Source of the DNA: an uncultured Thermoprotei archaeon
GTDB lineage: Archaea > Thermoproteota > Thermoprotei > Thermofilales > B15-G2
Assembly (NCBI GenBank): GCA_965367815.1
Contig: CBDUKN010000025.1
Coordinates: 1 to 33,506 of the forward strand
DNA: 33,506 nt
Direction: 5' to 3'
Both the position numbers and the translations under genes were made by a program. Every line of letters begins with the position of its first letter. Position 1 is the stretch's first letter. This document shows positions 11,995 through 21,690 of the stretch, piece by piece. The notes beneath the pieces were generated by a model that made no database searches, was not told the DNA's origin, and worked only from the letters and a program-made list of their open reading frames with translations.

Positions 11995-12060
11995 TATATA
12001 TTTTGAGTTAGGCTAGCATGCTATTTATTAAACAATTTTTAGTTTCTGACTATATAAAAC

Positions 12061-12837
12061 TTAGCTTTCAGCTATTTCCTCTAAAATCTTCTTTCCTTTA
12101 TCTGTAAGAATATACTTTACTACTATTTTGCCGCTTTCATCTTCCTCAGTCTTCATTTCAACGAGATTATATCCCCATAGGATAGCTACTAAGCTTCTCA
12201 CTGAAGCTCCAGGAAGATTTGTTTGAGACACTAAGTCTTTAAAGACTACTTCCTGGCTGCCAGATAGAGCTTTAAGTATTTTCTTCATGTTTTCGTCGAG
12301 TAGAGAAGCTAAAACACTCTTAGGGGGCTTTTTAGCAACTTCCTTCTTTTCTTTAGGTTTAGGCGGCTGCACTTTTTTCTCTTCTTCTACTTTAACTGCT
12401 GGCTTTTCACCAGCCGACGGCTTTTCAGTAACTTTTTCTTCAGGCTTCTCTAGTTCCTCTGGCTTTCTTTCTACTTCTTCCCTCTTACCTAATAGTAGTT
12501 CCTGTAGAGCCTTTGTTAGGGCCAAACTATCTTCGTAGCTTTTTGAAACAGATATTCCAGCAGTCCTCATTATTTGAAGTTCCCTAGAGAGCTTCTCTTT
12601 TTCTTCTTCAAGTCTTTTTATTTCCTCAATTAGTTCTCTTCTCATATCTTCTAATTCATCAACTTCTCTCCGCAAAGTTTCTACTCTATCTAGAAGACTT
12701 AGTATCTCGTTCTTCAATCTCTCTCTTTCATTAGTCAATCCCTTCAGTTCCAACTTTAGTATCTCAACTTGTCTGCGCAGGACGCCATATGACTTATAGT
12801 ACTCCAGAATGTCAAGGTCTTCTTTATCTAAGTTCAT
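12061..12837 (-). CDS. Coiled-coil + Lys/Glu/Pro linker + C-terminal winged-helix protein
   Basis: Heptads at about aa 15-95; linker; MKKILKAL...FKDLVSQTNL...SVRSLV..L...NLVE...YILTDKGKKIL. Confidence 0.8.
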   Translation of the reverse strand: MNLDKEDLDILEYYKSYGVLRRQVEILKLELKGLTNERERLKNEILSLLDRVETLRREVDELEDMRRELIEEIKRLEEEKEKLSRELQIMRTAGISVSKSYEDSLALTKALQELLLGKREEVERKPEELEKPEEKVTEKPSAGEKPAVKVEEEKKVQPPKPKEKKEVAKKPPKSVLASLLDENMKKILKALSGSQEVVFKDLVSQTNLPGASVRSLVAILWGYNLVEMKTEEDESGKIVVKYILTDKGKKILEEIAES

Positions 12838-13046
12838 TTCATAATATTTTCTCTTTGCCCAAATTTAAGGATAGTGCTTACTTTTCTCCAGAAAAATTTA
12901 AATGCATTAATAAATGCGCCCCAATTGTTCCGTCAAGGCCTTAGATAAACGAGTACTATGCATTCTAGTCGTTAATATTGCCTTGTACTATGTCTAACGA
13001 AACATCGATTAGACAAAAAGGTAATAAGTACACTGTATAGAAAGAT

Positions 13047-13415
13047 ATGGAGATAATGAGACTAAACATACTCTATGTAGTAGCTGGAGTAATAGGTATT
13101 ATCGGCTCAGCACTCTGCTTTATTTCAACGCTTCTATCGCTAATAGGCATTTTAACGAAAATAGGGTCATTTTCACTGGCCTACATTAATGTAGAGCTAC
13201 TTGTCTATGACTTAATAATGCTCATTCTTAGTATAGTCAGCTTAAAGGCCTCCAATAGTTTACGCGTAGGAGGCTACGCTGTGAGAGACAATAGTATAAT
13301 ACTCATAATCATGGGCGCCGTAATGATGTTCCTTAAAGGCGGCACTGGAGCATTTCTAGTGCTCCTAGGAGGTATTTTAGGGCTAATAGCCTACCTTATC
13401 TCGGAAATAGTCTAA
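13047..13415 (+). CDS. Hypothetical small membrane protein
   Basis: Four hydrophobic segments, GA.LVLLGGILGL. Confidence 0.7.
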   Translation: MEIMRLNILYVVAGVIGIIGSALCFISTLLSLIGILTKIGSFSLAYINVELLVYDLIMLILSIVSLKASNSLRVGGYAVRDNSIILIIMGAVMMFLKGGTGAFLVLLGGILGLIAYLISEIV

Positions 13416-13498
13416 AGACACCTCGATATTTCCTAAGTAATATCTCGTTTTCTCGCTATTTGCTTCTAATATATTAATTGACAGGAATTACTGAGAAT

Positions 13499-13711
13499 AT
13501 GAAATACTCTATATACTTCACACCCAAATCTCTTAGGCAGATAGAAAAACTAGACTATTATACTCAGCAAAAAATACTATATACTCTAAGCAAAGCTTCG
13601 CTAAGAGAAGAAACACGGTGTGAAGAAGTCATAGCTGGTTTCCGAGTAAACTATTATCTTGATAAAAAGAGGAGGAATTTAACAGTATTCAACTTGCAAA
13701 CAGGTATATGA
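13499..13711 (+). CDS. RelE/ParE-like small protein (solo)
   Basis: MKYSIYFTPKSLRQIEKLD...QQKI; GFRVNYYLDK...LTVF resembles the RelE pattern. Confidence 0.5.
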   Translation: MKYSIYFTPKSLRQIEKLDYYTQQKILYTLSKASLREETRCEEVIAGFRVNYYLDKKRRNLTVFNLQTGI

Positions 13712-13713
13712 AA

Positions 13714-14001
13714 TTATCTTAAGAGCCTCTCTTTAATTATGTTTATCCAGTCCTTAATATCTTCGACTAAAGCATTTCGGTCTTCAGGATCTTTTATAGG
13801 CTCATAGAGCTTATAATACTTGTTTAAAAACTGTATCCAGTCACTAATGTGTTTCCGTATATCACCGAATTCTTCTTCATCTAAGGTCTCTAAGAGTCCT
13901 TTAAGATTCTCTAAGATTACGTAAACATTTTTGTTTTCTAAGCAAGAATAGTATGCTGCTTGAATATATCTTCCAGCTTCGAAAGCCTCTATTGGATCCA
14001 T
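13714..14001 (-). CDS. Hypothetical helical protein, last gene of the multi-FtsZ operon
   Basis: GGTGA SD; 10 nt after the preceding stop. Confidence 0.75.
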   Translation of the reverse strand: MDPIEAFEAGRYIQAAYYSCLENKNVYVILENLKGLLETLDEEEFGDIRKHISDWIQFLNKYYKLYEPIKDPEDRNALVEDIKDWINIIKERLLR

Positions 14002-14011
14002 AGAGTCACCA

Positions 14012-14974
14012 TTATGCCACTTCTCCTACAAGGCTTCTAATTGTCGGAGATGTTATGCCAGCTGCAATAAACATTACTTTAGGATACTCTACTCTCTCGT
14101 CTAGTCTTAGTCCCCAGAATACTCTTTCTATACCATACCTCTCTGTAATTATTCTAGGTCCTTCACTAGCTTCTTCTAATGTTGTTTTAGGTGAAGAAAC
14201 TACGTAGAGAAGAGCTGCTTCTGCGTCTTTTAGCTCAGCGTCTAGCAACTTGTTTTTAATAGCATTTTCAGTAGCTACATTTACTTTAAGTCCAACTCCG
14301 TGCCCTACAACTCCTAGGCCCATGTCTCTTACAGCTGTAACGAAGTCAGCGTAACCTATGCTGACTATGCTCGGCTTGGTTATTAACTCTATTAGCGACT
14401 TTAGAGTATTGACAAGAATAGAGTCCATGAACTTAAAAGCGAACTGAACGGGAATGCCGCCTATTTTCTTCAACAGTAGATCGTTTAAGTTAACTATAGT
14501 TAAGTCAGCCTGCTGTAGAATTCCGTAAAGACCCAGCCTGGCGTTCTCTATGCGGTTCACTCCCTCGAAGGCAAAAGGGAAAGTCACTAGTGCTATTCTT
14601 AGTGCGTCTGGGAATCTGTTTCTTAGTTCTTCTAGTAGTACTGGTATTCCTCCGCTTGCTGTACCACCACCAAGACCACCAGTAACAATGACTACATTAG
14701 GAACTCCGATTGAGTTAATTATGCGGCTTACATCGTCTCTCATTGCTGCTTCTCCTAGACTTGGGTTTCCTCCTGTTCCATGTCCTCTTGTTATTGTTTG
14801 CCCAATTAATATTTTATTGGGTACTTTAACTGACTGTAAGTGAACAGCCTCAGTATGAACAGCAACAGCTAAAACATCTTCAGTAGCACCAACCTCATAC
14901 AACCTATTCAAAGTATTACAACCACAACCACCAACACCGACAACAACAATACTCGGTTTGGGTATTTCTCCCAT
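14012..14974 (-). CDS. ftsZ: FtsZ/tubulin-family GTPase paralog 5 (subgroup A)
   Basis: VVGVGGCGCN, GGLGGGTASG, PFAFEG..R, T7 SIGYAD. Confidence 0.9.
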   Translation of the reverse strand: MGEIPKPSIVVVGVGGCGCNTLNRLYEVGATEDVLAVAVHTEAVHLQSVKVPNKILIGQTITRGHGTGGNPSLGEAAMRDDVSRIINSIGVPNVVIVTGGLGGGTASGGIPVLLEELRNRFPDALRIALVTFPFAFEGVNRIENARLGLYGILQQADLTIVNLNDLLLKKIGGIPVQFAFKFMDSILVNTLKSLIELITKPSIVSIGYADFVTAVRDMGLGVVGHGVGLKVNVATENAIKNKLLDAELKDAEAALLYVVSSPKTTLEEASEGPRIITERYGIERVFWGLRLDERVEYPKVMFIAAGITSPTIRSLVGEVA

Positions 14975-14978
14975 CGTC

Positions 14979-15935
14979 TCACTCCTCTAAGAACTTTCTA
15001 ACAGATTCTGATTTTACCCCAGTTGCTATGAACGCTACTCTAGGCTGTGTTAGCTCCCAGCTTGGCTTAAATCCGAAGTAGACTACTTGAATATTGTATG
15101 TGGATGTAAGAGTCCCTGAGATATCGTATATATCTGACGTCTGCAGAGCTGTTTCAGTGCCTTCAATGTACACTACTGCTCCTTTACTTCCAGTTATATC
15201 AATATCACAGAACTCTTCTTTCATAGCCTCCTTGAATGCTTCTAGCACTCCTGCTGCTTCTTTGACATTTATTAGTCCTAAGCCTGACTTCATAGCTATT
15301 GCTTTAAATGAACTAAAGTCTACGTTCATTACTCCAGGTATAGGCTTTATTGACTGTAAGCCCAGTATTGCCTGGAGGCTGGCTTCTATTTTATTATCAA
15401 GTATTCTATAAGCTCTTACTAGAGGTAGTGTAGGATGCTTCTCTTTTAATTTGTCATTAAAGTGTACTACGGTTACATCAGATAAGTCTACTATAGTAGA
15501 TAAAGCCATTTTAGCATTGTTTATTCGGTTACTACTTTCTGTTTTAAACGGTATTGTTACAAAAGATATTACTAGTTTGTCGGGATAACTCTCCTTGATT
15601 TTTTCTACTAAGGCAGGATGTCCTCCGCTACCTGTTCCTCCACCTAAGCCAGAAATGATAACTACTACTTCTCCATCGGCTACTTTTTCTACTATTTTAT
15701 AGGCTTGAACTTCCATGGCTTTTCTGCCTAACTCCATTGCGCCGGCGGTAGACCTGCCTTTAGTAATGTCTTCTCCTATTAAGAGTTTGTCGTCGCATCT
15801 AGCTATTGAAAGCGCTGAAGAATCAGTGTCTACTCCAATAGTTTTTACAGGAATTCCTCTTCTCTTGACAGCAGTGAGAGCATTGAGACCCCTCCCCCCT
15901 ATGCCTACAACATATATTTTAAGTTCGGCTGACAT
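14979..15935 (-). CDS. ftsZ: FtsZ/tubulin-family GTPase paralog 4 (subgroup B)
   Basis: VVGIGGRGLN, DTD, GLGGGTGSG, PFKTE, T7 NVDFSS. Confidence 0.9.
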   Translation of the reverse strand: MSAELKIYVVGIGGRGLNALTAVKRRGIPVKTIGVDTDSSALSIARCDDKLLIGEDITKGRSTAGAMELGRKAMEVQAYKIVEKVADGEVVVIISGLGGGTGSGGHPALVEKIKESYPDKLVISFVTIPFKTESSNRINNAKMALSTIVDLSDVTVVHFNDKLKEKHPTLPLVRAYRILDNKIEASLQAILGLQSIKPIPGVMNVDFSSFKAIAMKSGLGLINVKEAAGVLEAFKEAMKEEFCDIDITGSKGAVVYIEGTETALQTSDIYDISGTLTSTYNIQVVYFGFKPSWELTQPRVAFIATGVKSESVRKFLEE

Positions 15936-15945
15936 TTTTTCACCA

Positions 15946-16185
15946 TTATTCTACAGGCTTACTAAGCAGTATTACATCTCCTACTCTTAATACATATGAA
16001 AAAGGTATATTAATTTTAGTTTCTTTTGTTCTCGGCCCTATTTTTTCTATCTTTTTAATGACTAGCTCTACACCTTCGGCGGCTTTTTCTGAAATTACTA
16101 TACTTTCAACTACTCCTACTACTTTACCGTTTACGTCTATTACTTGTCTTCCTATTATTTCTTTATCCGATATTTTTCTGTTCAT
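15946..16185 (-). CDS. PRC-barrel domain protein
   Basis: IIGRQVIDVNGKVVGVVESIVI...IPFSYVLRVGDVILL matches the archaeal PRC-barrel pattern. Confidence 0.88.
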   Translation of the reverse strand: MNRKISDKEIIGRQVIDVNGKVVGVVESIVISEKAAEGVELVIKKIEKIGPRTKETKINIPFSYVLRVGDVILLSKPVE

Positions 16186-16189
16186 TTAT

Positions 16190-17197
16190 TTACTTCACCT
16201 CAAGGTATTGATCCACTAGTGGAGACTTTACCCCTGCAGCCATTAGCATTACTCTCGGGTTATAGAGTTTCCAGTTATATCTGACTCCCCAGAATATAGT
16301 TGATATGCCGTATTTAGTTGCGAGTATACTTGTCATCTCCTCTACTTCGCTCGTCTTTAGCATTGCCTGTGTTCCCTCCATGTATATTACAGCTCCCTTT
16401 GCTCCAGTTAAGTCGGCTTCACAATAGTTTTGCTCTAAAGCGTTTTCAAACGCTGAAAATAATCTTGATCCCTGACCTACACCTACGAACCCTAGCCCGC
16501 TTCTTCTAGTAAGCCTCTCTACATTCGAGAAGTCTATGTTAACTAGTCCTGGTGTCGGTTCAGTGTACTGTAGGCTTGTCAGCGCAGTTATTACTGTCAC
16601 TAAATGCTTGTCCATTTCCCTAAATGCCTGCTGCAGGCTTCGTGAACCCATTTTCTGCTTTAATATGTCGTTGAAGTTTACTAGAATTACGTCTGCTAAA
16701 TCGAGTAGCTCTGCCAGAGCTACTTTAGCGTTTCTTACCCTCTCTGCTCCTTCTGAGGAGAAGGGAGTTGTTACTACTGCCCAGACGAGCTTATCTCCCA
16801 TGTTTTCTTTTATGTATTCTGCTAGTGCTAGTATTCCTCCTGTTCCTGTACCGCCGCCGAGACCAGCAGTAAGAATATACAGCTCAGCATCCTTGACTGG
16901 GGCAAGGACTTTGTCTACTTCGCGGCTCATTATCTCTCTACCAAGAGCAGGACTACCAGCACTACCACGACCACGAGTAACAGTCTCACCAATCAATACA
17001 CGGTACTTAGCTTTAGTCTTATAGAGTACTGCAGCATCCGTGTTTACGGCGACAGTGGGTACGTCTATTCCCGCTCTTTCAAGGTTAGAAATAGTGTTAC
17101 ATCCACATCCTCCTATACCAATGACAGCTATTTTGAGCACTGCTCTTTTAGAAACTACTTCTGCTAGTCTCTGTGCCTCTAGTATTCTACGCGCCAT
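16190..17197 (-). CDS. ftsZ: FtsZ/tubulin-family GTPase paralog 3 (subgroup B)
   Basis: IGIGGCGCN, NTD, GLGGGTGTG, PFSSEG..R, T7 NIDFSN; ATG 17197 follows AGGTGA. Confidence 0.92.
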   Translation of the reverse strand: MARRILEAQRLAEVVSKRAVLKIAVIGIGGCGCNTISNLERAGIDVPTVAVNTDAAVLYKTKAKYRVLIGETVTRGRGSAGSPALGREIMSREVDKVLAPVKDAELYILTAGLGGGTGTGGILALAEYIKENMGDKLVWAVVTTPFSSEGAERVRNAKVALAELLDLADVILVNFNDILKQKMGSRSLQQAFREMDKHLVTVITALTSLQYTEPTPGLVNIDFSNVERLTRRSGLGFVGVGQGSRLFSAFENALEQNYCEADLTGAKGAVIYMEGTQAMLKTSEVEEMTSILATKYGISTIFWGVRYNWKLYNPRVMLMAAGVKSPLVDQYLEVK

Positions 17198-17202
17198 AGA
17201 TA

Positions 17203-17496
17203 TCACCTTCTGCCGCGTCTTTCATCAATCTTCATTCTGAATGCTCTATTGAGAGCATCTATCAGCTGTTCTCTAGAGTATAGACCTCCGTGGCCTTTTG
17301 CTTCAACCCATTCAACGAACTTTACTACTGGTGGCTCAAAAGGCATTTTTTCGAGCTCACAGTACCACGCTATGTCTACTTCGCCGCTCTCTTCTTCAAG
17401 GAACTTTAAAGCTAAGTCGAGTGGGCTGGGGGCAGCAGACTGAGGAGCCGGCTTTTGTTTTTCCTCTTCCTCTTTCTTCTTTCTACCAAACAGCAT
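17203..17496 (-). CDS. Hypothetical operon protein with N-terminal hydrophobic/basic peptide (MLFGRKKK)
   Basis: GGTGA SD; tightly packed between FtsZ paralogs. Confidence 0.75.
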   Translation of the reverse strand: MLFGRKKKEEEEKQKPAPQSAAPSPLDLALKFLEEESGEVDIAWYCELEKMPFEPPVVKFVEWVEAKGHGGLYSREQLIDALNRAFRMKIDERRGRR

Positions 17497-17502
17497 ATTC
17501 TA

Positions 17503-18525
17503 TCACCCGGTAAACCCAGACATAAATTCTTCTACATAATCACATTTAACTGATGTTACAAAAACAGATACTCTCACGTCAACGATATCCCACGTGGGCC
17601 TTAGTCCCATGAATACTGTAGGTATAGCATATCTCTCAGAGAACTGTCTAGTAGTGTTTCTTATTTGAGTCATGTCCAGCAATGTTTCTCTGCCCTCAAA
17701 CATGAGTATTGCTCCTCGAGCTCCCTCGAGCCTAGACCTAGCGTAGTCGTCGGAGAGAGCTCTTATGTAGGCATCGTATATTCTGGGTCCGTCACCTACT
17801 CCGACGAAGCAGAATCCTGAGTTCTGCATTAATCTCTGTACATTAGAGAAGTCTACGTTGATTACTCCTGGGCCTATCATGGGTGATTGCATTCTTACTA
17901 GCGCCTCTACTATTCTGGCAATTCTCTTGTCCATTTCTTTGAATGCATAAGCCATGCTTACTCCCCTCAGTCTTTCTGCTAGTACGTCGTTTGCGTTAAC
18001 TATTATTGCATCTGAAACATCCATGAGTTCTCTGAGACCTATTTGAGCATTTCTTATTCTTTCTTCACCTTCTTCTTTAAAGGGTAGAGTTACTACAGCT
18101 ATTCTCAGAGCATTAGGTCTTCTTGTTCTGAGCTCTCTGAAAAGTACTGGTAGACCTCCTGTTCCTGTTCCTCCGCCTAAGCCTGCTATACCTATGACTA
18201 CATCGACGTTTTCGTCAATAGCTCCTATTGCTTCTTCAATACTCTCTTCCATTGCTTGTGCTCCTAACTCAGGTACACCTCTAGCTCCTCTGGCTTCAGC
18301 CGAAAGTCCTCCTAGAAGAACTCTTACATCACATCTTGTTCTACGCAGAACAGCAGAGTCTGTGTTCATGGCTATTAGCTTAGCGGGCAGACGGAGCCTA
18401 GATAGATTGTTGATAGCGTTGTTTCCGCAGCCTCCTACACCAACAATATTTATTTTAACGGCTGCTTCGCGCTCTTTTTGGGCCAAATACCTTAACTGCT
18501 CACGTAACCTAACCCTATATGACAT
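17503..18525 (-). CDS. ftsZ: FtsZ/tubulin-family GTPase paralog 2 (subgroup B)
   Basis: VGVGGCGNNA, NTD, GLGGGTGTG, PFKEEG..R, T7 NVDFSN. Confidence 0.92.
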   Translation of the reverse strand: MSYRVRLREQLRYLAQKEREAAVKINIVGVGGCGNNAINNLSRLRLPAKLIAMNTDSAVLRRTRCDVRVLLGGLSAEARGARGVPELGAQAMEESIEEAIGAIDENVDVVIGIAGLGGGTGTGGLPVLFRELRTRRPNALRIAVVTLPFKEEGEERIRNAQIGLRELMDVSDAIIVNANDVLAERLRGVSMAYAFKEMDKRIARIVEALVRMQSPMIGPGVINVDFSNVQRLMQNSGFCFVGVGDGPRIYDAYIRALSDDYARSRLEGARGAILMFEGRETLLDMTQIRNTTRQFSERYAIPTVFMGLRPTWDIVDVRVSVFVTSVKCDYVEEFMSGFTG

Positions 18526-18531
18526 AACCTA

Positions 18532-19521
18532 TCACCCTACAGCTTCACTAACACCCACAATATCCGAAATTATTCTAGATCTAACACCACTCGCAATAAT
18601 CATCACATGGCTTTCTCTGAGCTTGGGGTTTACTTTTAAACCCCATATTACTCTCTCAACACCGTATTTGTCGCTGACTATTCTAGGAGCTTCAGCTGCC
18701 TGCCTTAAACTAACTCCGGGAGGAGCGCTCACGTAGACTAAAGCTCCTTTTGCTGAGCTTAATTCTGCATCAAGGAGCTTTGACTCAATAGCTTTTTCGA
18801 CGGCCTTTCTTATGGACCTGTGGCGTCCGTGTCCCACAAAGCTTACTCCAGCTCTTCTAAGTAGTGTAACTAAGTCAGCAAAATCTACTCTAAGCTGCGC
18901 TCCTTTAGGCTGAAGCATGTCTACTATGCTTTCAATAGTATTTGCGAGAATAGCGTCCATCATTCTAAAGCTTTCCTGGAGAGGCAGTGTGCCATAGCGC
19001 TCAAGTAGAATGTCGTTTAGGTTCACTATAACAAAGTCTGCTACATCAAGAGTGTCCCTCAAGCCCATTTGCGTATTCTTGAGCCTCTCTATGCCCTCGT
19101 ATCTAAAGGGTATTGATACTACAGCACCCATTAGTAAGTCAGGATACTCGTCTCTCAGTTGAGCCAAGATATAAGGTGTGGCTCCGGAGCCTGTTCCTCC
19201 TCCGAAACCACATGTAATCATCAGAAAATCAGGCTTTCCTATCGCTTCAAGCACTTTGTCGATGTCTTCTTCAGCAGCCTTTCTTCCCTTAGATATATCG
19301 CCGCCTGTTCCTCTTCCTCTAGTAGTATTTTCCCCAATTTGAATTAATTGGTGAGCCTTAGTTACATTGAGAGAATTTACATCAGTGTTTACAGCGATTA
19401 GCTTTGCTTCAACATTTCTCTCGAATAGATTCGTTATAGTGTTGCAGCCACAATCGCCAACACCTACTACAACAATCTTGGTCACTACTTCTTCTAAGTC
19501 ACTACGTATAGGTCTCATCAT
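18532..19521 (-). CDS. ftsZ: FtsZ/tubulin-family GTPase paralog 1 (subgroup A)
   Basis: VVGVGDCGCN, NTD, TRGRGTGG, GFGGGTGSG, PFRYEG..R, T7 RVDFAD. Confidence 0.93.
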   Translation of the reverse strand: MMRPIRSDLEEVVTKIVVVGVGDCGCNTITNLFERNVEAKLIAVNTDVNSLNVTKAHQLIQIGENTTRGRGTGGDISKGRKAAEEDIDKVLEAIGKPDFLMITCGFGGGTGSGATPYILAQLRDEYPDLLMGAVVSIPFRYEGIERLKNTQMGLRDTLDVADFVIVNLNDILLERYGTLPLQESFRMMDAILANTIESIVDMLQPKGAQLRVDFADLVTLLRRAGVSFVGHGRHRSIRKAVEKAIESKLLDAELSSAKGALVYVSAPPGVSLRQAAEAPRIVSDKYGVERVIWGLKVNPKLRESHVMIIASGVRSRIISDIVGVSEAVG

Positions 19522-19549
19522 ATATACTCGCTATTTATTCACGCGTAAA

Positions 19550-19565
19550 TTATATATAGGTTTCG
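19550..19565 (-). promoter_or_regulatory. BRE/TATA promoter of the multi-FtsZ operon
   Basis: CGAAACC-TATATATAA about 29-37 nt upstream of the first ATG. Confidence 0.55.
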
Positions 19566-19756
19566 CTAAAGGTTCGATTGCTAAAATAAAGTCTTTAGGC
19601 TTTTAAAACACTAATTAATGTAAATTTCTTTTATACATTATATTAAGTAAGCAGTATTTTCAGCATTTCCATAAAACCTAATTACTCTGAGCTTAAATAC
19701 TCTATCGTTAAGTTTATAACTGCATTTCAGAGGAAAGAATCTTACATTACCCGAAA

Positions 19757-21139
19757 TTACTCATACACATGTACTCTGATAAGATCTGTTGCTCCCTCTC
19801 TCATGCCTCCTGTTGAAACAATGATATCTCCGTAAGAAAGCTCTCCCTCATTTTTCAGTATTTCGGTGAGTTCTCTAAGAGAACTGCTTATGTCGCTTGT
19901 AGATGAAAGGTAAGGAGTAACTCCCCATAGGAGCTTGAGCTTTCTCATAACTTTAATATCGTTTGTAATGGCGTAGACAGGTGCTCTAGGTCTAAATCTA
20001 CTTATTCTTCTTGCTGTATTACCTTTCTTAGTGTACAATAGTATTTTAGCGTTTAGCGAATCTGCCAAGAGGACTACTCCTTTAGCAAATTTCGTGTAAA
20101 TGTCTTCTCTTATGGACTCTTCTCCTCTAATATTCGGCAGAACTTTCTCGGCTTCGCTAATTATTCGCTTTAGCCACTTAACAGCTTCTACTGGGTACTT
20201 TCCTATAGCTGTTTCACCAGCTAGTAGCAATGCATCTACTCCTTGCTGTACTGCTACCATAATGTCTACTACTTCTGAGCGAGTGGGGTAAGGCGAATTT
20301 ATCATAGATTCAAGTAGCTGAGTAGCAACTATAACAGGCTTGCTTTTCATTCTAGCTTTTCTCACTAAGTATTCCTGTAATCTGGGTATTTCCTCTAAGC
20401 TAAAGTACATTCCTAAGTCTCCTCTGGCTACTAGTATGGCGTCGGCTTCGTCTAGTATCTGGTCTATGTTTTCGATAGCTTTTCTGGTTTCGATTTTAGC
20501 TATTACTCCTATGTGTTCTCCTCCCTTGTCGTGAAGAATATCTTTGAGAGTCTTTACATCGTCTTTATTTCTAACAAACGATAATGCGAGAAAATCTACT
20601 TTATTTATGCTGAACTCTATGTCTTTTAAGTCTTTATCGGTTATAACTAGTAGCGGCAGTTCTTTGTATGGAAGAATAAGTGTTCTGCGTGGTTTAACTA
20701 CAGCATCGTTTAAGGCCATGCATTTAATAAAGTCGTTTTCGATTTTAGTTACTCTAAGTCTAAGAGCACCTGCTCCTATTACCACTAAGTCTTCTTCATC
20801 TATTATTGAGTAGACTTTGGTATTAGGTATAGGAATGGTTTTGGGTTCGCTAGTTTCACTAGAACACACTATTTTTATTTCCTCTCCTTTCTTAACTGAA
20901 AAAGTCTTATGGCTTCCTGTCCTAATAGTAGGTCCCTGTAAATCTCCTATAATCGGCAGTACTATGCCATAGGATTCTTCGACACTTTTAATAAGCTTAA
21001 TTAAGTTTTCTCTTTCCTCGCCTACTGCGTGAGCATAATTTATACGAACTAAATCTACGCCTTCTCTTATCATGCGAAGCAGTACTTTTTCTGAAGCAGA
21101 AGCAGGGCCTATGGAAGCTATTATTTTAGTTTTAGGCAT
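19757..21139 (-). CDS. pyk: Pyruvate kinase
   Basis: TKIIASIGPAS, DLQGP, IAKIE, VARGDLG, ATQLLESM, PTRSEVVD. Confidence 0.97.
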   Translation of the reverse strand: MPKTKIIASIGPASASEKVLLRMIREGVDLVRINYAHAVGEERENLIKLIKSVEESYGIVLPIIGDLQGPTIRTGSHKTFSVKKGEEIKIVCSSETSEPKTIPIPNTKVYSIIDEEDLVVIGAGALRLRVTKIENDFIKCMALNDAVVKPRRTLILPYKELPLLVITDKDLKDIEFSINKVDFLALSFVRNKDDVKTLKDILHDKGGEHIGVIAKIETRKAIENIDQILDEADAILVARGDLGMYFSLEEIPRLQEYLVRKARMKSKPVIVATQLLESMINSPYPTRSEVVDIMVAVQQGVDALLLAGETAIGKYPVEAVKWLKRIISEAEKVLPNIRGEESIREDIYTKFAKGVVLLADSLNAKILLYTKKGNTARRISRFRPRAPVYAITNDIKVMRKLKLLWGVTPYLSSTSDISSSLRELTEILKNEGELSYGDIIVSTGGMREGATDLIRVHVYE

Positions 21140-21316
21140 AAGAAAAATTCGCGGCCAGCTATATATTTCAAGCTTTTATCTCAATAAATATTCAAGATAA
21201 GTAATTACTTGCCAAGAATGCTTAGCCATGAACTTGAAAAAATCTTTAAACATAGTGCAGCTAATATAAGAGAAAAATAAATATCTTATTTATAATTAGG
21301 GTAAATATGGGAAGTA

Positions 21317-21405
21317 AATAAATTCTATCGAAACATCTTTATCCATATTTATATCCCTCTAAACTATTTAGATAAGATGTTTCAATAAAGTTTATTAACT
21401 TTATT
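21317..21405. repeat. Imperfect ~26-bp inverted repeat plus an overlapping 9-bp palindrome in a divergent promoter region
   Basis: aataaattctatcgaaacatctttatc (21317-43) vs reverse complement of 21371-96 aataaactttattgaaacatcttatc; aataaagtt-tatt-aactttatt at 21384-405. Confidence 0.7.
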
Positions 21406-21422
21406 TGCAAATAAGAACGGTC

Positions 21423-21690
21423 GTGGGCGAAATTCTCAGCGAAATTAAGCAAGTAGCTATAAACGCGAAGAAAATCCTCGGCCTAAGTGAAGAAGAACAA
21501 TAACTGCTTAGAGAAAACAAAGACTCATATTGGCTTTAATGAAAATGTTCATGTGCAACTTCTACATTATTACGAGTAGCTATCTCATAGCTAGACGCAG
21601 AGCTTTTCAAGATATCATTGAAATGCCCCCCGAGCTCTACGAAAGACTTCTATTAAATAAAATAGAAAAGATTTATCCGAGTTATTAAAA
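21423..21690 (+). pseudogene. Degraded ORF, N-terminus weakly resembling protoglobin
   Basis: VGEILSEIKQVAINAKKILGLSEEEQ*LLRENKD; then multiple stops. Confidence 0.3.

What the first reader, a model, noticed from the sequence alone, without database searches (positions are those of the whole stretch)
13714..19521. Operon of five divergent FtsZ/tubulin paralogs with a PRC barrel: candidate new multi-subunit archaeal cytoskeletal or division system
Seen: eight co-oriented genes with 4-10-nt gaps, one TATA upstream and a GGTGA/GGAGTGA SD before each internal gene. Order: FtsZ-A1, FtsZ-B1, orf97, FtsZ-B2, PRC, FtsZ-B3, FtsZ-A2, orf95. All five GTPases are intact, strongly diverged from each other and carry GGGT(G/A)(S/T)G. 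Established: FtsZ-using archaea typically have FtsZ1 and FtsZ2 at separate loci (plus dispersed CetZs), and characterised Thermoproteales/Sulfolobales lack canonical FtsZ. Inference: an ancient tandem expansion co-expressed to build one heteromeric structure. I know of no described five-FtsZ operon but cannot search to confirm this.
Basis: partly seen in the sequence, partly recalled or inferred. Interest (0 to 1): 0.95.

Follow-up and report, generated by a model that had tools for sequence, protein, structure and literature searches.

The report
Conserved archaeal operon of five FtsZ paralogs
A rare group of hot-vent archaea carries a tightly packed, evolutionarily conserved operon of four or five very divergent FtsZ (tubulin-like) proteins plus small partner proteins, which probably build one mixed-subunit filament and has not been described in the papers that could be searched.

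Summary
Eight co-oriented minus-strand genes (19521-13714) encode five intact FtsZ-family GTPases (A1, B1, B2, B3, A2), a PRC-barrel protein and two small helical proteins, spaced by -4 to 10 nt.

- **Second cluster:** the same genome holds a three-gene cluster (B2'-B3'-A2').
- **Other machinery:** no canonical FtsZ, SepF, CdvA or Snf7 match was found. Crenactin is present.
- **Synteny:** the core order A1-B1-orf97-B2-A2, with or without a PRC-B3 insert, recurs in eight genomes of at least two Thermoproteota classes and in 12 of 12 metagenome loci found through orf97.
- **Phylogeny:** each paralog is a separate, well-supported orthologous clade, and all lie outside FtsZ1, FtsZ2, bacterial FtsZ and CetZ.
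- **Rarity:** about 11 of 1.84 billion cluster representatives belong to the family.
- **Catalytic loop:** only A1 keeps both acidic residues of the T7 loop. A2 and all B classes have each lost one, and the loss is conserved.
- **Tails:** none has a C-terminal tail.

Best reading (inferred, untested): an obligate heteromeric FtsZ-like filament with dedicated adaptors, working on the alpha/beta-tubulin principle. Whether it serves division or cell shape is open. Divergent Thermoproteota FtsZs have been glimpsed in trees, but no paper searched describes the operon.

The parts
19550..19558 (-). TATA-like box (TATATATAA) about 30 nt upstream of the A1 start; the only A/T box ahead of the operon
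   Evidence: Read directly from the sequence. Its function as a promoter is inferred, not tested.
18532..19521 (-). FtsZ paralog A1 (329 aa). It is the only class that keeps both acidic residues of the T7 loop (RVDFAD).
   Evidence: Pfam Tubulin 1e-36 and FtsZ_C 2.6e-11. TIGR00065 scores 236 bits, below the 295 cut-off. Best solved match is M. jannaschii FtsZ1 at 190 bits, against 42-49 bits for CetZ. A1 clade support is 100/96. T7 table.
17503..18525 (-). FtsZ paralog B1 (340 aa), T7 loop NVDFSN (second Asp replaced)
   Evidence: Pfam Tubulin 2.9e-33 with no FtsZ_C hit. Best solved match 160 bits to 1W58. B1 clade support 96/100. T7 table.
17203..17496 (-). orf97: small accessory protein. It has a conserved N-terminal M-x-F-x-R-K-K motif, a variable linker and a confident four-helix domain. 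It sits between B1 and B2 in every operon seen.
   Evidence: No Pfam or NCBIfam hit. Alignment of 7 orthologs. AlphaFold2 model has mean pLDDT 82.6, with blocks covering residues 31-90 at 93-95. Present at the same position in 8 of 8 genomes and 12 of 12 metagenome loci.
16190..17197 (-). FtsZ paralog B2 (335 aa from the ATG at 17197; 338 aa from the GTG at 17206), T7 loop NIDFSN
   Evidence: Pfam Tubulin 3.6e-31. GGTGA precedes the ATG at 17197. B2 clade support 85/97.
15946..16185 (-). Stand-alone PRC-barrel protein (79 aa)
   Evidence: Pfam PRC PF05239 3e-9. Solved stand-alone archaeal PRC-barrel proteins 8qzo 3e-5 and 1pm3 6e-4. Orthologs at the same position in L010, L046/L160, L150-L153, L158 and L161.
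14979..15935 (-). FtsZ paralog B3 (318 aa), T7 loop NVDFSS (second Asp lost)
   Evidence: Pfam Tubulin 1.3e-31. B3 clade support 100/98. T7 table.
14012..14974 (-). FtsZ paralog A2 (320 aa). T7 loop is SIGYAD (Asn and first Asp lost), T2 loop is HTE instead of NTD, T4 is GGGTASG.
   Evidence: Pfam Tubulin 7.9e-36 and FtsZ_C 5.7e-9. A2 clade support 100/98. First T7 Asp lost and T2 H-[TA]-E in 10 of 10 A2 rows.
13714..14001 (-). orf95: small helical protein, last gene of the operon; found only in the closest lineages
   Evidence: No family above threshold. Relatives only in G001 and G003. Model shows four helices, pLDDT 72. No fold match at E <= 0.001.
16799..17012 (-). 214-nt tract inside B2 that is letter-for-letter identical to the B2' copy on contig C1 (gene-conversion tract)
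   Evidence: exact run of 214 nt against about 75% identity overall. Contigs of other runs end at its edges.
14586..14947 (-). 362-nt tract inside A2 identical to the A2' copy on contig C1 (gene-conversion tract)
   Evidence: Contigs of runs X1-X3 end at its edges, and X7 record 26 (14223-15167) runs through it.

Best explanation
The operon encodes a dedicated, multi-subunit FtsZ-family cytoskeletal system.

- **Co-expression (inferred):** four or five paralogs (A1, B1, B2, optionally B3, A2) are made together from one promoter in near-fixed ratios. This follows from 4-10-nt spacing, one overlap and a ribosome-binding motif before each gene.
- **Co-assembly (inferred):** they build one mixed protofilament or oligomer in which each paralog holds a defined place.
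- **GTP use (sequence shown, consequence inferred):** all five keep the GTP-binding signature. Only A1 keeps both acidic residues of the T7 loop, which activates GTP hydrolysis in the neighbouring subunit. GTP would then be hydrolysed efficiently only at the interface fed by A1. At the other interfaces it would serve mainly as a structural cofactor, as at the alpha/beta-tubulin intradimer interface.
- **Anchoring (inferred):** the proteins lack the C-terminal linker and peptide through which canonical FtsZ binds SepF, and SepF was not found. Anchoring and bundling would fall to the operon's own small proteins. orf97 has a basic-hydrophobic N-terminal motif, a linker and a helical domain. In some lineages there is also a CdpB-like PRC-barrel protein and orf95.
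- **Cellular role (open):** division ring or shape-determining filament. I lean slightly towards division or constriction in the lineages that have no other FtsZ, SepF or ESCRT-III (G000, G001, G003, G057), and towards an accessory cytoskeleton where canonical FtsZ coexists (G287, G462).
For: **Genes and packing**
- Anatomy and families.

**Orthology and age** (careful IQ-TREE, 80 rows; support given as UFBoot/SH-aLRT)
- A1 100/96, A2 100/98, B1 96/100, B3 100/98, B2 85/97. Each clade holds members from several genomes.
- An AU test does not reject a single A+B clade (p 0.306).

**Inheritance as a unit**
- The order A1-B1-orf97-B2-(PRC-B3)-A2 is seen in G000, G001, G003, G057, G287, G461, G462 and G463.
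- All 12 metagenome loci found with orf97 show it too: B2 follows orf97 in 12 of 12, and B1 precedes it in 11 of 12. The twelfth contig ends there.
- No genome with only one class was seen. Among 401 sampled Thermoproteota genomes, exactly 3 have four or more Tubulin matches, and all three are clustered. In the class, 4 of 120 genomes have any match, each with at least four.

**T7 loop pattern**
- Both Asp kept: 12 of 12 A1 rows.
- First Asp lost: 10 of 10 A2 rows, which also have T2 H-[TA]-E in 10 of 10.
- Second Asp lost: 7 of 8 B1, 5 of 5 B2, 5 of 5 B3 and 2 of 2 Bx rows.
- Both Asp kept: 28 of 28 canonical FtsZ rows.
- That these residues are needed for GTPase activation is recalled textbook knowledge on E. 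coli and M. jannaschii FtsZ, not a call.

**No tails, no SepF**
- Lengths are 309-345 aa, ending right after the C-terminal domain.
- No SepF match in G000, G001, G003, G057 or G461.

**Second cluster**
- B2'-B3'-A2' lacks its own A1, B1 and orf97. Exact 214-nt and 362-nt conversion tracts cover its GTPase cores. This fits exchangeable isoforms that must fit the same partners.
Against: - No experiment or computation here shows that any two of these proteins touch.
- No RNA data exist to show co-transcription.
- Canonical FtsZ1 and FtsZ2 of Haloferax coexist with distinct roles without being known as obligate heteropolymers, so paralogs in one cell need not copolymerise.
- T7 substitutions are not always lethal to function. 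One canonical reference (Methanobrevibacter) has Ser in place of the T7 Asn. The effect of Asp-to-Asn, Ser or Gly in these proteins is inferred from other FtsZs.
- The separate B2'-B3'-A2' cluster shows that a subset can be transcribed apart from A1 and B1.
- G287 and G462 also carry canonical-type FtsZ, and G287 carries SepF. The system is therefore not necessarily the divisome.
- Thirty-eight of 41 genomes of the same order manage without it.
- The position of the B classes near the CetZ outgroup may be a long-branch effect, so the depth of the family is uncertain.
Confidence: 0.55

Rival explanations
1. The paralogs form independent homopolymers with separate jobs, like FtsZ1/FtsZ2 or the several CetZs of haloarchaea. 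On this view they sit in one operon only for co-regulation.
For: All five keep an intact GTP-binding signature. Archaea are known to run two FtsZs and several CetZs side by side (PMC9723716 and PMC9856176, passages read). A subset (B2'-B3'-A2') exists as its own cluster.
Against: - Four of the five classes have conservatively lost a T7 acidic residue. Homopolymers of A2 or of any B class would then be expected to be poor GTPases. This expectation is inferred.
- The classes are never found singly: 3 of 401 and 4 of 120 genomes have them, always as clusters.
- Gene order is fixed across at least two classes of Thermoproteota.
Confidence: 0.25
2. The system is the cell-division ring itself. It would be a replacement Z-ring for Thermoproteia that have lost canonical FtsZ/SepF and ESCRT-III. 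This is a sub-case of the best explanation that fixes the function.
For: - G000 is 99.4% complete and has no canonical FtsZ: all 8 Tubulin hits are family members.
- It has no SepF, no CdvA and no Snf7 match.
- Vps4_C hits lie only in 720-740-aa Cdc48-like frames.
- A PRC-barrel gene is embedded in the operon, and PRC-barrel proteins act in archaeal division (10.1101/2023.03.28.534520, passages read).
Against: - Thirty-eight of 41 genomes of the same order divide without any FtsZ-family gene.
- G287 and G462 carry the operon together with canonical-type FtsZ, and G287 also has SepF.
- The Snf7 control barely detects Sulfolobus, so missing ESCRT-III is weakly shown.
- Crenactin is present and is the proposed cytoskeleton of these lineages (PMC9723716, passage read).
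Confidence: 0.3
3. The operon is a mobile-element, plasmid-partition or conflict system built on a tubulin-like motor, in the manner of TubZ or PhuZ, that has landed in the chromosome.
For: - Distribution is patchy across at least two classes.
- GC is slightly raised (0.39-0.445) against the flanks (0.33-0.38).
- It carries small uncharacterised partner proteins.
Against: - Flanks are housekeeping genes: pyruvate kinase, MoaA, MoaC and a creatininase-family gene.
- No tRNA and no Rfam element is in the window.
- The sequences are far closer to FtsZ (160-190 bits) than to any other solved tubulin-family protein. The only non-FtsZ solved hits are CetZ at 42-50 bits, and no TubZ or PhuZ chain is listed at E <= 1e-5.
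- The pyruvate-kinase neighbour is kept in the same-genus relatives.
Confidence: 0.05
4. Assembly artefact: a chimeric contig that strings together FtsZ genes of several organisms or collapses repeats.
For: Two exact repeats (214 and 362 nt) are shared with a second cluster, and contigs of other runs break at them. An assembler could switch clusters at these points.
Against: - Contigs of four other runs cover all 30 bins and bridge every gene junction. X7 record 26 runs through the A2 tract.
- Five separate assemblies give the identical order at 82-100% identity (L010, L150-L153).
- More distant genomes give the same order at 37-66% identity.
- Composition is smooth across the region.
Confidence: 0.02

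Closest known systems
Archaeal dual FtsZ1/FtsZ2 divisome with SepF and PRC-barrel CdpB proteins (Haloferax volcanii model)
   Same: Several FtsZ-family GTPases act in one cell, and a small stand-alone PRC-barrel protein is associated with them. The best solved sequence match of A1 and B1 is an archaeal FtsZ1.
   Different: - The paralogs lie outside the FtsZ1 and FtsZ2 clades and score under the NCBIfam ftsZ cut-off.
- They have no C-terminal tail, and SepF was not found.
- All genes sit in one operon rather than at separate loci.
- In the arCOG survey only one genome, a Micrarchaeota archaeon, had a PRC-barrel gene beside ftsZ/sepF (10.1101/2023.03.28.534520, passage read).
Alpha/beta-tubulin and bacterial BtubA/BtubB(-BtubC) heterodimeric tubulins
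   Same: Adjacent paralogous genes come with a small accessory gene in one operon, as in btubA-btubB-btubC (PMC9871819, passage read). The catalytic T7 residue is kept in one paralog and lost in the partner; the alpha-Glu versus beta-Lys contrast in tubulin is recalled, not from a call.
   Different: These are FtsZ-like rather than tubulin-like in sequence. There are four or five classes instead of two. No structure or polymer is known. orf97 has no detectable similarity to any known family.
CetZ paralog families of Euryarchaeota
   Same: Multiple tubulin-superfamily paralogs occur per genome, and a role in shape rather than division is possible.
   Different: CetZ forms a separate clade with 100/100 support on a long branch. 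A1 and B1 score only 42-50 bits against solved CetZs, versus 160-190 bits against FtsZ. CetZ genes are dispersed, not in one operon.
Uncharacterised 'FtsZ-like' clade reported for Culexarchaeia, and the 'divergent FtsZs' of Crenarchaeota
   Same: Published trees note deep-branching FtsZ-like sequences from unclassified Thermoproteia, Bathyarchaeia and Thermoplasmata lying outside FtsZ1 and FtsZ2 (PMC9723716; PMC9871819; passages read). Some of those sequences may be members of this family or of its tail-less sister group (P0014, P0024, P0025, P0031, P0063).
   Different: The passages read mention no operon, no paralog classes, no accessory genes and no T7 pattern. The supplementary trees that would show the overlap could not be opened.
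Chloroplast FtsZ1/FtsZ2 (FtsZA/FtsZB) heteropolymers (recalled, not from a call)
   Same: Paralogous FtsZs co-assemble, and one of them lacks the C-terminal anchoring peptide.
   Different: That system has two classes with dispersed nuclear genes, and both keep the catalytic T7 residues.
FtsZl1/Tubulin_2 operons (Makarova and Koonin 2010, PMC2875224; seen in search listing only)
   Same: A divergent FtsZ-superfamily protein sits in a conserved operon with uncharacterised partners.
   Different: Tubulin_2 (PF13809) matches are weak and below cut-off (17.8-19.6 bits against 27). The genome scan finds none at E <= 0.001.

Membership tests
FtsZ/tubulin superfamily | Tubulin/FtsZ GTPase domain (Pfam PF00091) over the gathering score | tested here: met
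   All five score 109-128 bits against a cut-off of 33.
FtsZ/tubulin superfamily | Glycine-rich T4 signature motif GGGTG[ST]G | tested here: met
   A1, B3: GGGTGSG. B1, B2: GGGTGTG. A2: GGGTASG.
Canonical FtsZ (cell-division FtsZ, NCBIfam TIGR00065 equivalog) | Score at or above the curated equivalog cut-off (295.2 bits) | tested here: not met
   Scores are 236, 180, 195, 166 and 217 bits.
Canonical FtsZ | Complete T7 synergy loop N-x-D-[FY]-x-D | tested here: not met
   None of the five has the full motif. A1 keeps both Asp but has Arg for Asn. A2 lacks the first Asp. B1, B2 and B3 lack the second. Twenty-seven of 28 canonical rows have the full motif and 28 of 28 keep both Asp.
Canonical FtsZ | C-terminal linker and conserved C-terminal peptide for membrane anchors (SepF or FtsA) | tested here: not met
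   The proteins end within about 10 residues after the C-terminal domain and are 318-340 aa long, against 344-421 aa for canonical rows.
Canonical FtsZ | Placement inside the clade of bacterial FtsZ plus archaeal FtsZ1 and FtsZ2 | tested here: not met
   The canonical clade (27 rows) is supported at 98/100 and excludes all 42 family rows.
Archaeal FtsZ2 | Clade membership and an upstream cdrS (RHH) gene | tested here: not met
   The FtsZ2 clade (98/96) holds the cdrS-linked references L139, L140 and L141 and no family row. No RHH gene lies upstream of A1; the 235-nt spacer leads to pyruvate kinase.
CetZ | Clade with Haloferax CetZ1 and higher similarity to CetZ than to FtsZ | tested here: not met
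   The CetZ clade has 100/100 support and includes L144, which is CetZ1 (845 bits to 4B46). No family row is in it. A1 and B1 score 42-50 bits to CetZ structures against 160-190 to FtsZ.
FtsZl1 / Tubulin_2 | Pfam PF13809 over cut-off | tested here: not met
   Best score is 19.6 bits against a cut-off of 27. The genome scan finds no match at E <= 0.001.
PRC-barrel proteins (CdpB/CdvA-type archaeal division adaptors) | PRC-barrel domain (PF05239), small stand-alone protein | tested here: met
   37.2 bits against a cut-off of 21.2, covering residues 5-74 of 79. Solved archaeal PRC-barrel proteins match at 3e-5 and 6e-4.
PRC-barrel proteins (CdpB orthology and division function) | Orthology to CdpB1/2/3 and binding to SepF | not tested
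   No PRC phylogeny was made. SepF was not found in this genome, so the known partner is missing.
SepF (considered for orf97 because of its N-terminal motif + linker + small domain layout) | SepF domain (PF04472) with its alpha/beta fold | tested here: not met
   No Pfam hit at E <= 0.01. The confident model is all-helical, with four helices.

The most novel reading that the evidence does not exclude
An archaeal lineage independently arrived at the tubulin principle and took it further. It would make a fixed-order hetero-oligomer of four or five FtsZ-derived subunits in which only one interface, fed by the A1 T7 loop, hydrolyses GTP, while the others hold structural nucleotide. The oligomer would be tethered and bundled by its own adaptors (orf97, a PRC barrel, orf95). 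In the Thermofilales-like carriers that lack FtsZ1/2, SepF and ESCRT-III, this machine would be the long-sought division apparatus.
Probability: 0.25. Interest if true: 0.92.

Novelty: new variant of a known kind. Interest (0 to 1): 0.8.

Why it matters
- **Origin of tubulin heterodimers.** How obligate heteromers with a catalytic and a non-catalytic interface arose from homopolymeric FtsZ-like ancestors is an open question. Here natural selection seems to have partitioned the T7 catalytic residues among four or five co-inherited FtsZ paralogs. That makes the question testable with small thermostable proteins.
- **Division in Thermoproteales-type archaea.** How archaea without FtsZ and without ESCRT-III divide is unknown. 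Some of their relatives carry this system as their only tubulin-family machinery.
- **New partners.** orf97 and orf95 belong to no known family, and the operon contains a rare PRC-barrel/FtsZ gene linkage. This offers candidate FtsZ-binding adaptors that do not depend on SepF.
- **Rarity.** About a dozen 50%-identity clusters among 1.84 billion representatives belong to the family, all from hydrothermal samples. This explains why it has been overlooked.

Tried and rejected
- **Complex prediction** of B1 + B2 with orf97 as partner: no answer, score 0.00, controls not run. This is no evidence either way.
- **RNA evidence**: no RNA holder listed among 21 runs, so expression and co-transcription could not be examined.
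- **Fold of orf97:**
  - Foldseek against PDB gave no match at E <= 0.001.
  - VIA-align wide gave a best Z of 6.3 (MCM N-terminal helical bundle). That is within the noise the tool states for helical models.
  - The ESM Atlas gave no usable hit by features, and structural rows were under the bar.
- **Fold of orf95:** the model has pLDDT 72. Foldseek gave only generic four-helix bundles at E >= 0.6.
- **Sister group search:** a genome-contig scan with the tail-less sister group (alignment A6) used patterns that were too general. It returned only canonical FtsZ at 41% identity or less. The genomic context and taxonomy of the sister group stay unknown. The loci were reused as named references.
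- **Labelling FtsZ1 and FtsZ2:** I first tried similarity to the solved M. jannaschii FtsZ1. This was misleading, because the higher-scoring Thermoproteota clade falls in FtsZ2. I replaced it with the cdrS-linkage criterion and the tree.
- **Tandem proteins:** P0002, P0005 and P0009 (744-840 aa, two stretches) at the top of the representative search looked like Rosetta-stone fusions. Both halves have canonical T7 loops and long linkers, so they are not members of this family.
- **PDB codes in papers:** a search for the codes 8QZO and 8ONW did not identify those entries, so I do not call them CdpB.
- **Supplements:** the supplementary trees of PMC9723716 and PMC9871819 and the neighbourhood table of 10.1101/2023.03.28.534520 could not be read. 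They may already contain some of these proteins.

Full report
**1.

The minus strand between 19521 and 13714 carries eight open frames in a row:

| Gene | Coordinates | Length |
|---|---|---|
| A1 | 19521-18532 | 329 aa |
| B1 | 18525-17503 | 340 aa |
| orf97 | 17496-17203 | 97 aa |
| B2 | 17206-16190 | 338 aa (GTG start) |
| PRC | 16185-15946 | 79 aa |
| B3 | 15935-14979 | 318 aa |
| A2 | 14974-14012 | 320 aa |
| orf95 | 14001-13714 | 95 aa |

- The gaps are 6, 6, -4, 4, 10, 4 and 10 nt.
- Every internal gene has GGTGA or GGAGTGA a few bases before its start. For B2 this is true only of the ATG at 17197, which is therefore the likelier start (335 aa, gap +5).
- A TATATATAA box lies at 19558-19550, about 30 nt before the A1 ATG.
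- All five large proteins match Pfam Tubulin/FtsZ (E 1e-36 to 4e-31). The 79-aa protein matches the PRC barrel (3e-9). orf97 and orf95 match nothing.
- The five are 29-42% identical to each other and keep the glycine-rich signature.

**2. The contig is not a chimera.**

- Seven DNA runs from hydrothermal vent or sediment metagenomes hold at least half of the sampled words of the stretch.
- Contigs of four of those runs, laid on 12000-21500, cover all 30 bins and bridge the gene junctions:
  - X3 record 23 spans 16989-21500.
  - X1 record 3 spans 15621-16828.
  - X1 record 2 spans 14918-15648.
  - X3 record 17 spans 12017-14612.
- Contig ends pile up at two places only, 14586-14947 and 16799-17012. 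These are exact repeats shared with a second cluster (section 3). X7 record 26 runs through the first.
- Five independent assemblies (L010, L150-L153) show the same gene order at 82-100% protein identity.
- The flanks are ordinary chromosomal genes: pyruvate kinase, MoaA, MoaC and a creatininase-family gene. The window holds no tRNA and no Rfam match.

**3. What else the genome holds.**

The window is one whole contig of a 2.45-Mb assembly that is 99.4% complete.

- A Pfam Tubulin scan of the genome finds eight genes. Five are in the window. Three sit together on contig C1 as B2'-B3'-A2', of 335, 309 and 323 aa.
- The copies are 74%, 58% and 81% identical in protein to their window counterparts.
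- At the DNA level the clusters are about 75% identical. They nevertheless share exact runs of 214 nt (inside B2) and 362 nt (inside A2) over the GTPase cores. This points to recent gene conversion.
- There is no canonical FtsZ. All eight hits are family members.
- Scans found no SepF, no CdvA, no Snf7 at E <= 0.01 and no Tubulin_2. The Snf7 control rings only weakly in Sulfolobus, so that negative is soft.
- Vps4_C matches fall only in 720-740-aa Cdc48-like frames.
- There is one actin-family gene, which scores 396 bits to the solved entries 4CJ7 and 4BQL. That these entries are crenactin of Pyrobaculum is recalled, not from a call.

**4. Distribution.**

- In 120 species genomes of the same class, 4 have any Tubulin match at E <= 1e-10, and each has at least four.
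- Of 41 genomes of the same order, 38 have no FtsZ-family gene.
- In 401 sampled genomes of the phylum, 158 have a match. Only three (G000, G057, G287) have four or more, always clustered. The rest have one to three dispersed, longer, canonical-type genes.
- Targeted searches added three more carriers:
  - L046 (record title 'Thermoproteota archaeon B8_G17')
  - L047 ('uncultured Candidatus Bathyarchaeia archaeon')
  - L048 ('Candidatus Bathyarchaeota archaeon B24_G1')
- A scan of 241 million metagenome records with the orf97 alignment gave 12 loci. Three have the contig lengths of MAG contigs already seen.
- A profile of 18 family members scored against 1.84 billion cluster representatives gave 24,271 hits at E <= 0.001:
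  - Only 15 hits score over 290 bits; below that is a plateau at 275 or less.
  - Three of the 15 are tandem canonical fusions, whose two domains add up.
  - One is a tail-less relative (P0014).
  - Eleven are family members.
- For A1 alone, only six 90% clusters at 54-95% identity exist among 5.8 billion. The next hit is an A2-type at 41%, and all others are at 39% or less.
- The system is therefore real, old and very rare.

**5. Architecture.**

Two forms exist.

- **Core form, A1-B1-orf97-B2-A2:** seen in G057/L019, G461/L047, G463/L048, L157 and, with very divergent third genes, G287/L020.
- **Long form, with PRC-B3 inserted between B2 and A2:** seen in the window, G001/L010, L150-L153, G462/L046 and L158/L161. 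G003 probably has it too, but the operon is split over two contigs there, with B3 and A2 on one.
- An orf97 relative sits between B1 and the next gene in every case. This includes a 78-aa frame in G287 with the same N-terminal motif.
- orf95 was found only in G000, G001 and G003.

**6. Phylogeny.**

Named references were obtained from Haloferax denitrificans, a Thermococcus MAG, Methanobrevibacter, a Jordarchaeia MAG and Syntrophoarchaeum.

- FtsZ2 was labelled by the upstream RHH (cdrS) gene. The cdrS-ftsZ2 link is from PMC7439475, whose search listing and abstract only I saw.
- CetZ was labelled by near-identity to solved CetZ1 (845 bits).

The careful tree (80 rows, LG+C20+F+G4 by PMSF) gives these supports as UFBoot/SH-aLRT:

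| Clade | Rows | Support |
|---|---|---|
| CetZ | 6 | 100/100 |
| Canonical FtsZ (bacteria + FtsZ1 + FtsZ2) | 27 | 98/100 |
| FtsZ2 | 16 | 98/96 |
| A (A1 + A2) | 22 | 100/98 |
| A1 | 12 | 100/96 |
| A2 | 10 | 100/98 |
| B1 | 8 | 96/100 |
| B3 | 5 | 100/98 |
| B2 | 5 | 85/97 |

- The two aberrant third genes of G057 and G287 join each other as long branches (80/32).
- No family row lies inside FtsZ1, FtsZ2 or CetZ.
- With the root at CetZ, the B classes branch first, then A, then a small group of other tail-less FtsZs (P0014, P0024, P0025, P0031, P0063), then canonical FtsZ.
- An earlier tree without CetZ joined A and B (SH-aLRT 94). An AU test does not reject A+B as one clade (p 0.306).
- I read the basal position as fast evolution with possible long-branch pull, not as proof of pre-LUCA age.
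- Similarity agrees with the tree. A1 and B1 score 190 and 160 bits to M. jannaschii FtsZ1, canonical Thermoproteota FtsZs score 327 and 278, and CetZ structures score only 42-50. All five fall below the NCBIfam ftsZ cut-off.

**7. The most telling feature.**

In the alignment of 42 family and 28 canonical rows, the T7 loop is N-x-D-[FY]-x-D in 27 of 28 canonical rows, and both Asp are kept in 28 of 28. Within the family the pattern depends on the class:

| Class | T7 loop | Rows |
|---|---|---|
| A1 | [RH]-x-D-[FW]-x-D, both Asp kept | 12 of 12 |
| A2 | [SG]-I-[SG]-[FY]-x-D, first Asp lost | 10 of 10 |
| B1 | N-V-D-F-S-N, second Asp lost | 7 of 8 |
| B2 | x-x-D-F-S-N, second Asp lost | 5 of 5 |
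| B3 | N-V-D-F-x-[VMS], second Asp lost | 5 of 5 |
| Bx | second Asp lost | 2 of 2 |

- A2 also has H-[TA]-E for the T2 N-T-D in 10 of 10 rows, and GGGTASG in 8 of 10.
- The C1 copies follow their class.
- From what is known of E. coli and M. jannaschii FtsZ (recalled), these two aspartates of one subunit activate hydrolysis of the GTP held by the next subunit.
- The losses are class-specific, conserved across class-level divergence, and sit in proteins that are otherwise under purifying selection. The simplest reading is that A2 and the B classes never need to activate hydrolysis on their own, because they work next to other classes.
- This is the logic of alpha/beta-tubulin, extended to four or five subunits. 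It is an inference.

**8. Accessory proteins.**

- None of the FtsZs has a C-terminal linker or peptide.
- **orf97:** it has a conserved N-terminal M-x-F-x-R-K-K motif, a linker of variable length and a confidently modelled four-helix domain. The layout recalls a membrane-targeting adaptor. The fold is all-helical, so it is not SepF, and no known fold or family could be assigned.
- **PRC-barrel protein:** it resembles solved stand-alone archaeal PRC-barrel proteins. PRC-barrel proteins (CdpB1-3) are division factors tethered by SepF in Haloferax. The survey behind that work found only one genome with a PRC-barrel gene beside ftsZ/sepF (10.1101/2023.03.28.534520, passages read). An embedded PRC gene in an FtsZ operon without SepF is therefore unusual.
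- **orf95:** a generic four-helix protein.

**9. Function.**

- **Division is plausible** for G000, G001, G003 and G057. The operon is their only tubulin-family system, and SepF was not found. For G000, CdvA and Snf7 scans were also negative.
- **Against a universal division role:**
  - Thirty-eight of 41 genomes of the same order lack any FtsZ.
  - G287 carries the operon with a canonical FtsZ and two SepF genes.
  - G462 has two further canonical-type genes, judged by score and length only.
  - Crenactin is present in G000.
- I therefore commit to the heteromeric-filament mechanism (0.55) and leave division versus shape open.

**10. Novelty.**

- Seven full-text searches and passages of four papers turned up no description of a multi-FtsZ operon.
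- PMC9723716 describes a new FtsZ-like clade that includes sequences from 'unclassified Thermoproteia' and Bathyarchaeia.
- PMC9856176 does not mention these lineages.
- Supplementary trees and tables could not be read and may list some of these proteins. The library also lacks most subscription journals.
- I rate it a new variant of a known kind: an FtsZ-family cytoskeleton, but multi-subunit, tail-less, SepF-independent and with its own adaptors.

Noticed in passing
G000 contig C1:172145-175044 (L009 7145-10044, minus strand): A second, three-gene FtsZ-paralog cluster, B2'-B3'-A2', without A1, B1, orf97 or PRC. It is also present in the same-genus genome G001 (L023).
   Followed up: yes
window 16799-17012 and 14586-14947: Exact 214-nt and 362-nt identities with the C1 cluster against about 75% overall identity: recent gene conversion over the GTPase cores. 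Contigs of other runs break at these tracts.
   Followed up: yes
G000 contig C9 (L018 1288-2544, minus strand): A 418-aa actin homolog scoring 396 bits to solved entries 4CJ7 and 4BQL (crenactin, by recall). The organism therefore combines crenactin with eight FtsZ-like genes.
   Followed up: partly
window 12061-12837 (minus strand): A 258-aa coiled-coil protein with a lysine/glutamate-rich middle lies downstream of the operon. It is kept beside it in G001 (58% identity) and weakly matched in G057. Only sub-threshold coiled-coil Pfam hits were found. A possible cytoskeleton-associated partner; not examined.
   Followed up: no
window 13047-13415 (+) and 13478-13711 (+): A 122-aa predicted membrane protein and a 77-aa ORF lie convergent to the operon end. 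Both are conserved next to orf95 in G001 (L024/L049) and belong to no family.
   Followed up: no
proteins P0002, P0005, P0009: Natural tandem FtsZ-FtsZ fusion proteins (744-840 aa) with two complete canonical domains joined by low-complexity linkers. They are unrelated to this family but curious in themselves.
   Followed up: partly
proteins P0014, P0024, P0025, P0031, P0063: A small group of other tail-less FtsZs of 319-341 aa. The four retrieved (P0014, P0024, P0025, P0031) have canonical-type T7 loops; P0063 was not inspected. The group branches between this family and canonical FtsZ. Its hosts and gene context are unknown.
   Followed up: partly
L026-L045 (Thermoproteota canonical FtsZ loci): Both canonical FtsZ groups sampled from Thermoproteota fall inside the FtsZ2 clade (98/96). 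L036 has a cdrS-like RHH gene directly upstream. This agrees with the published remark that Crenarchaeota mostly kept FtsZ2.
   Followed up: partly
window 14001-19000 versus flanks: GC of the operon (0.39-0.445) is a little above the flanks (0.33-0.38). This could reflect glycine/alanine-rich coding or foreign origin.
   Followed up: no
window 15667 to 16749 (table 5): Contigs in three runs join B3 to B2 while skipping 1081 nt, with 47-49 letters on the shorter side. This may be a variant or a hybrid between paralogs in the population, or cross-mapping from the C1 cluster, where B2' abuts B3' without a PRC gene.
   Followed up: no
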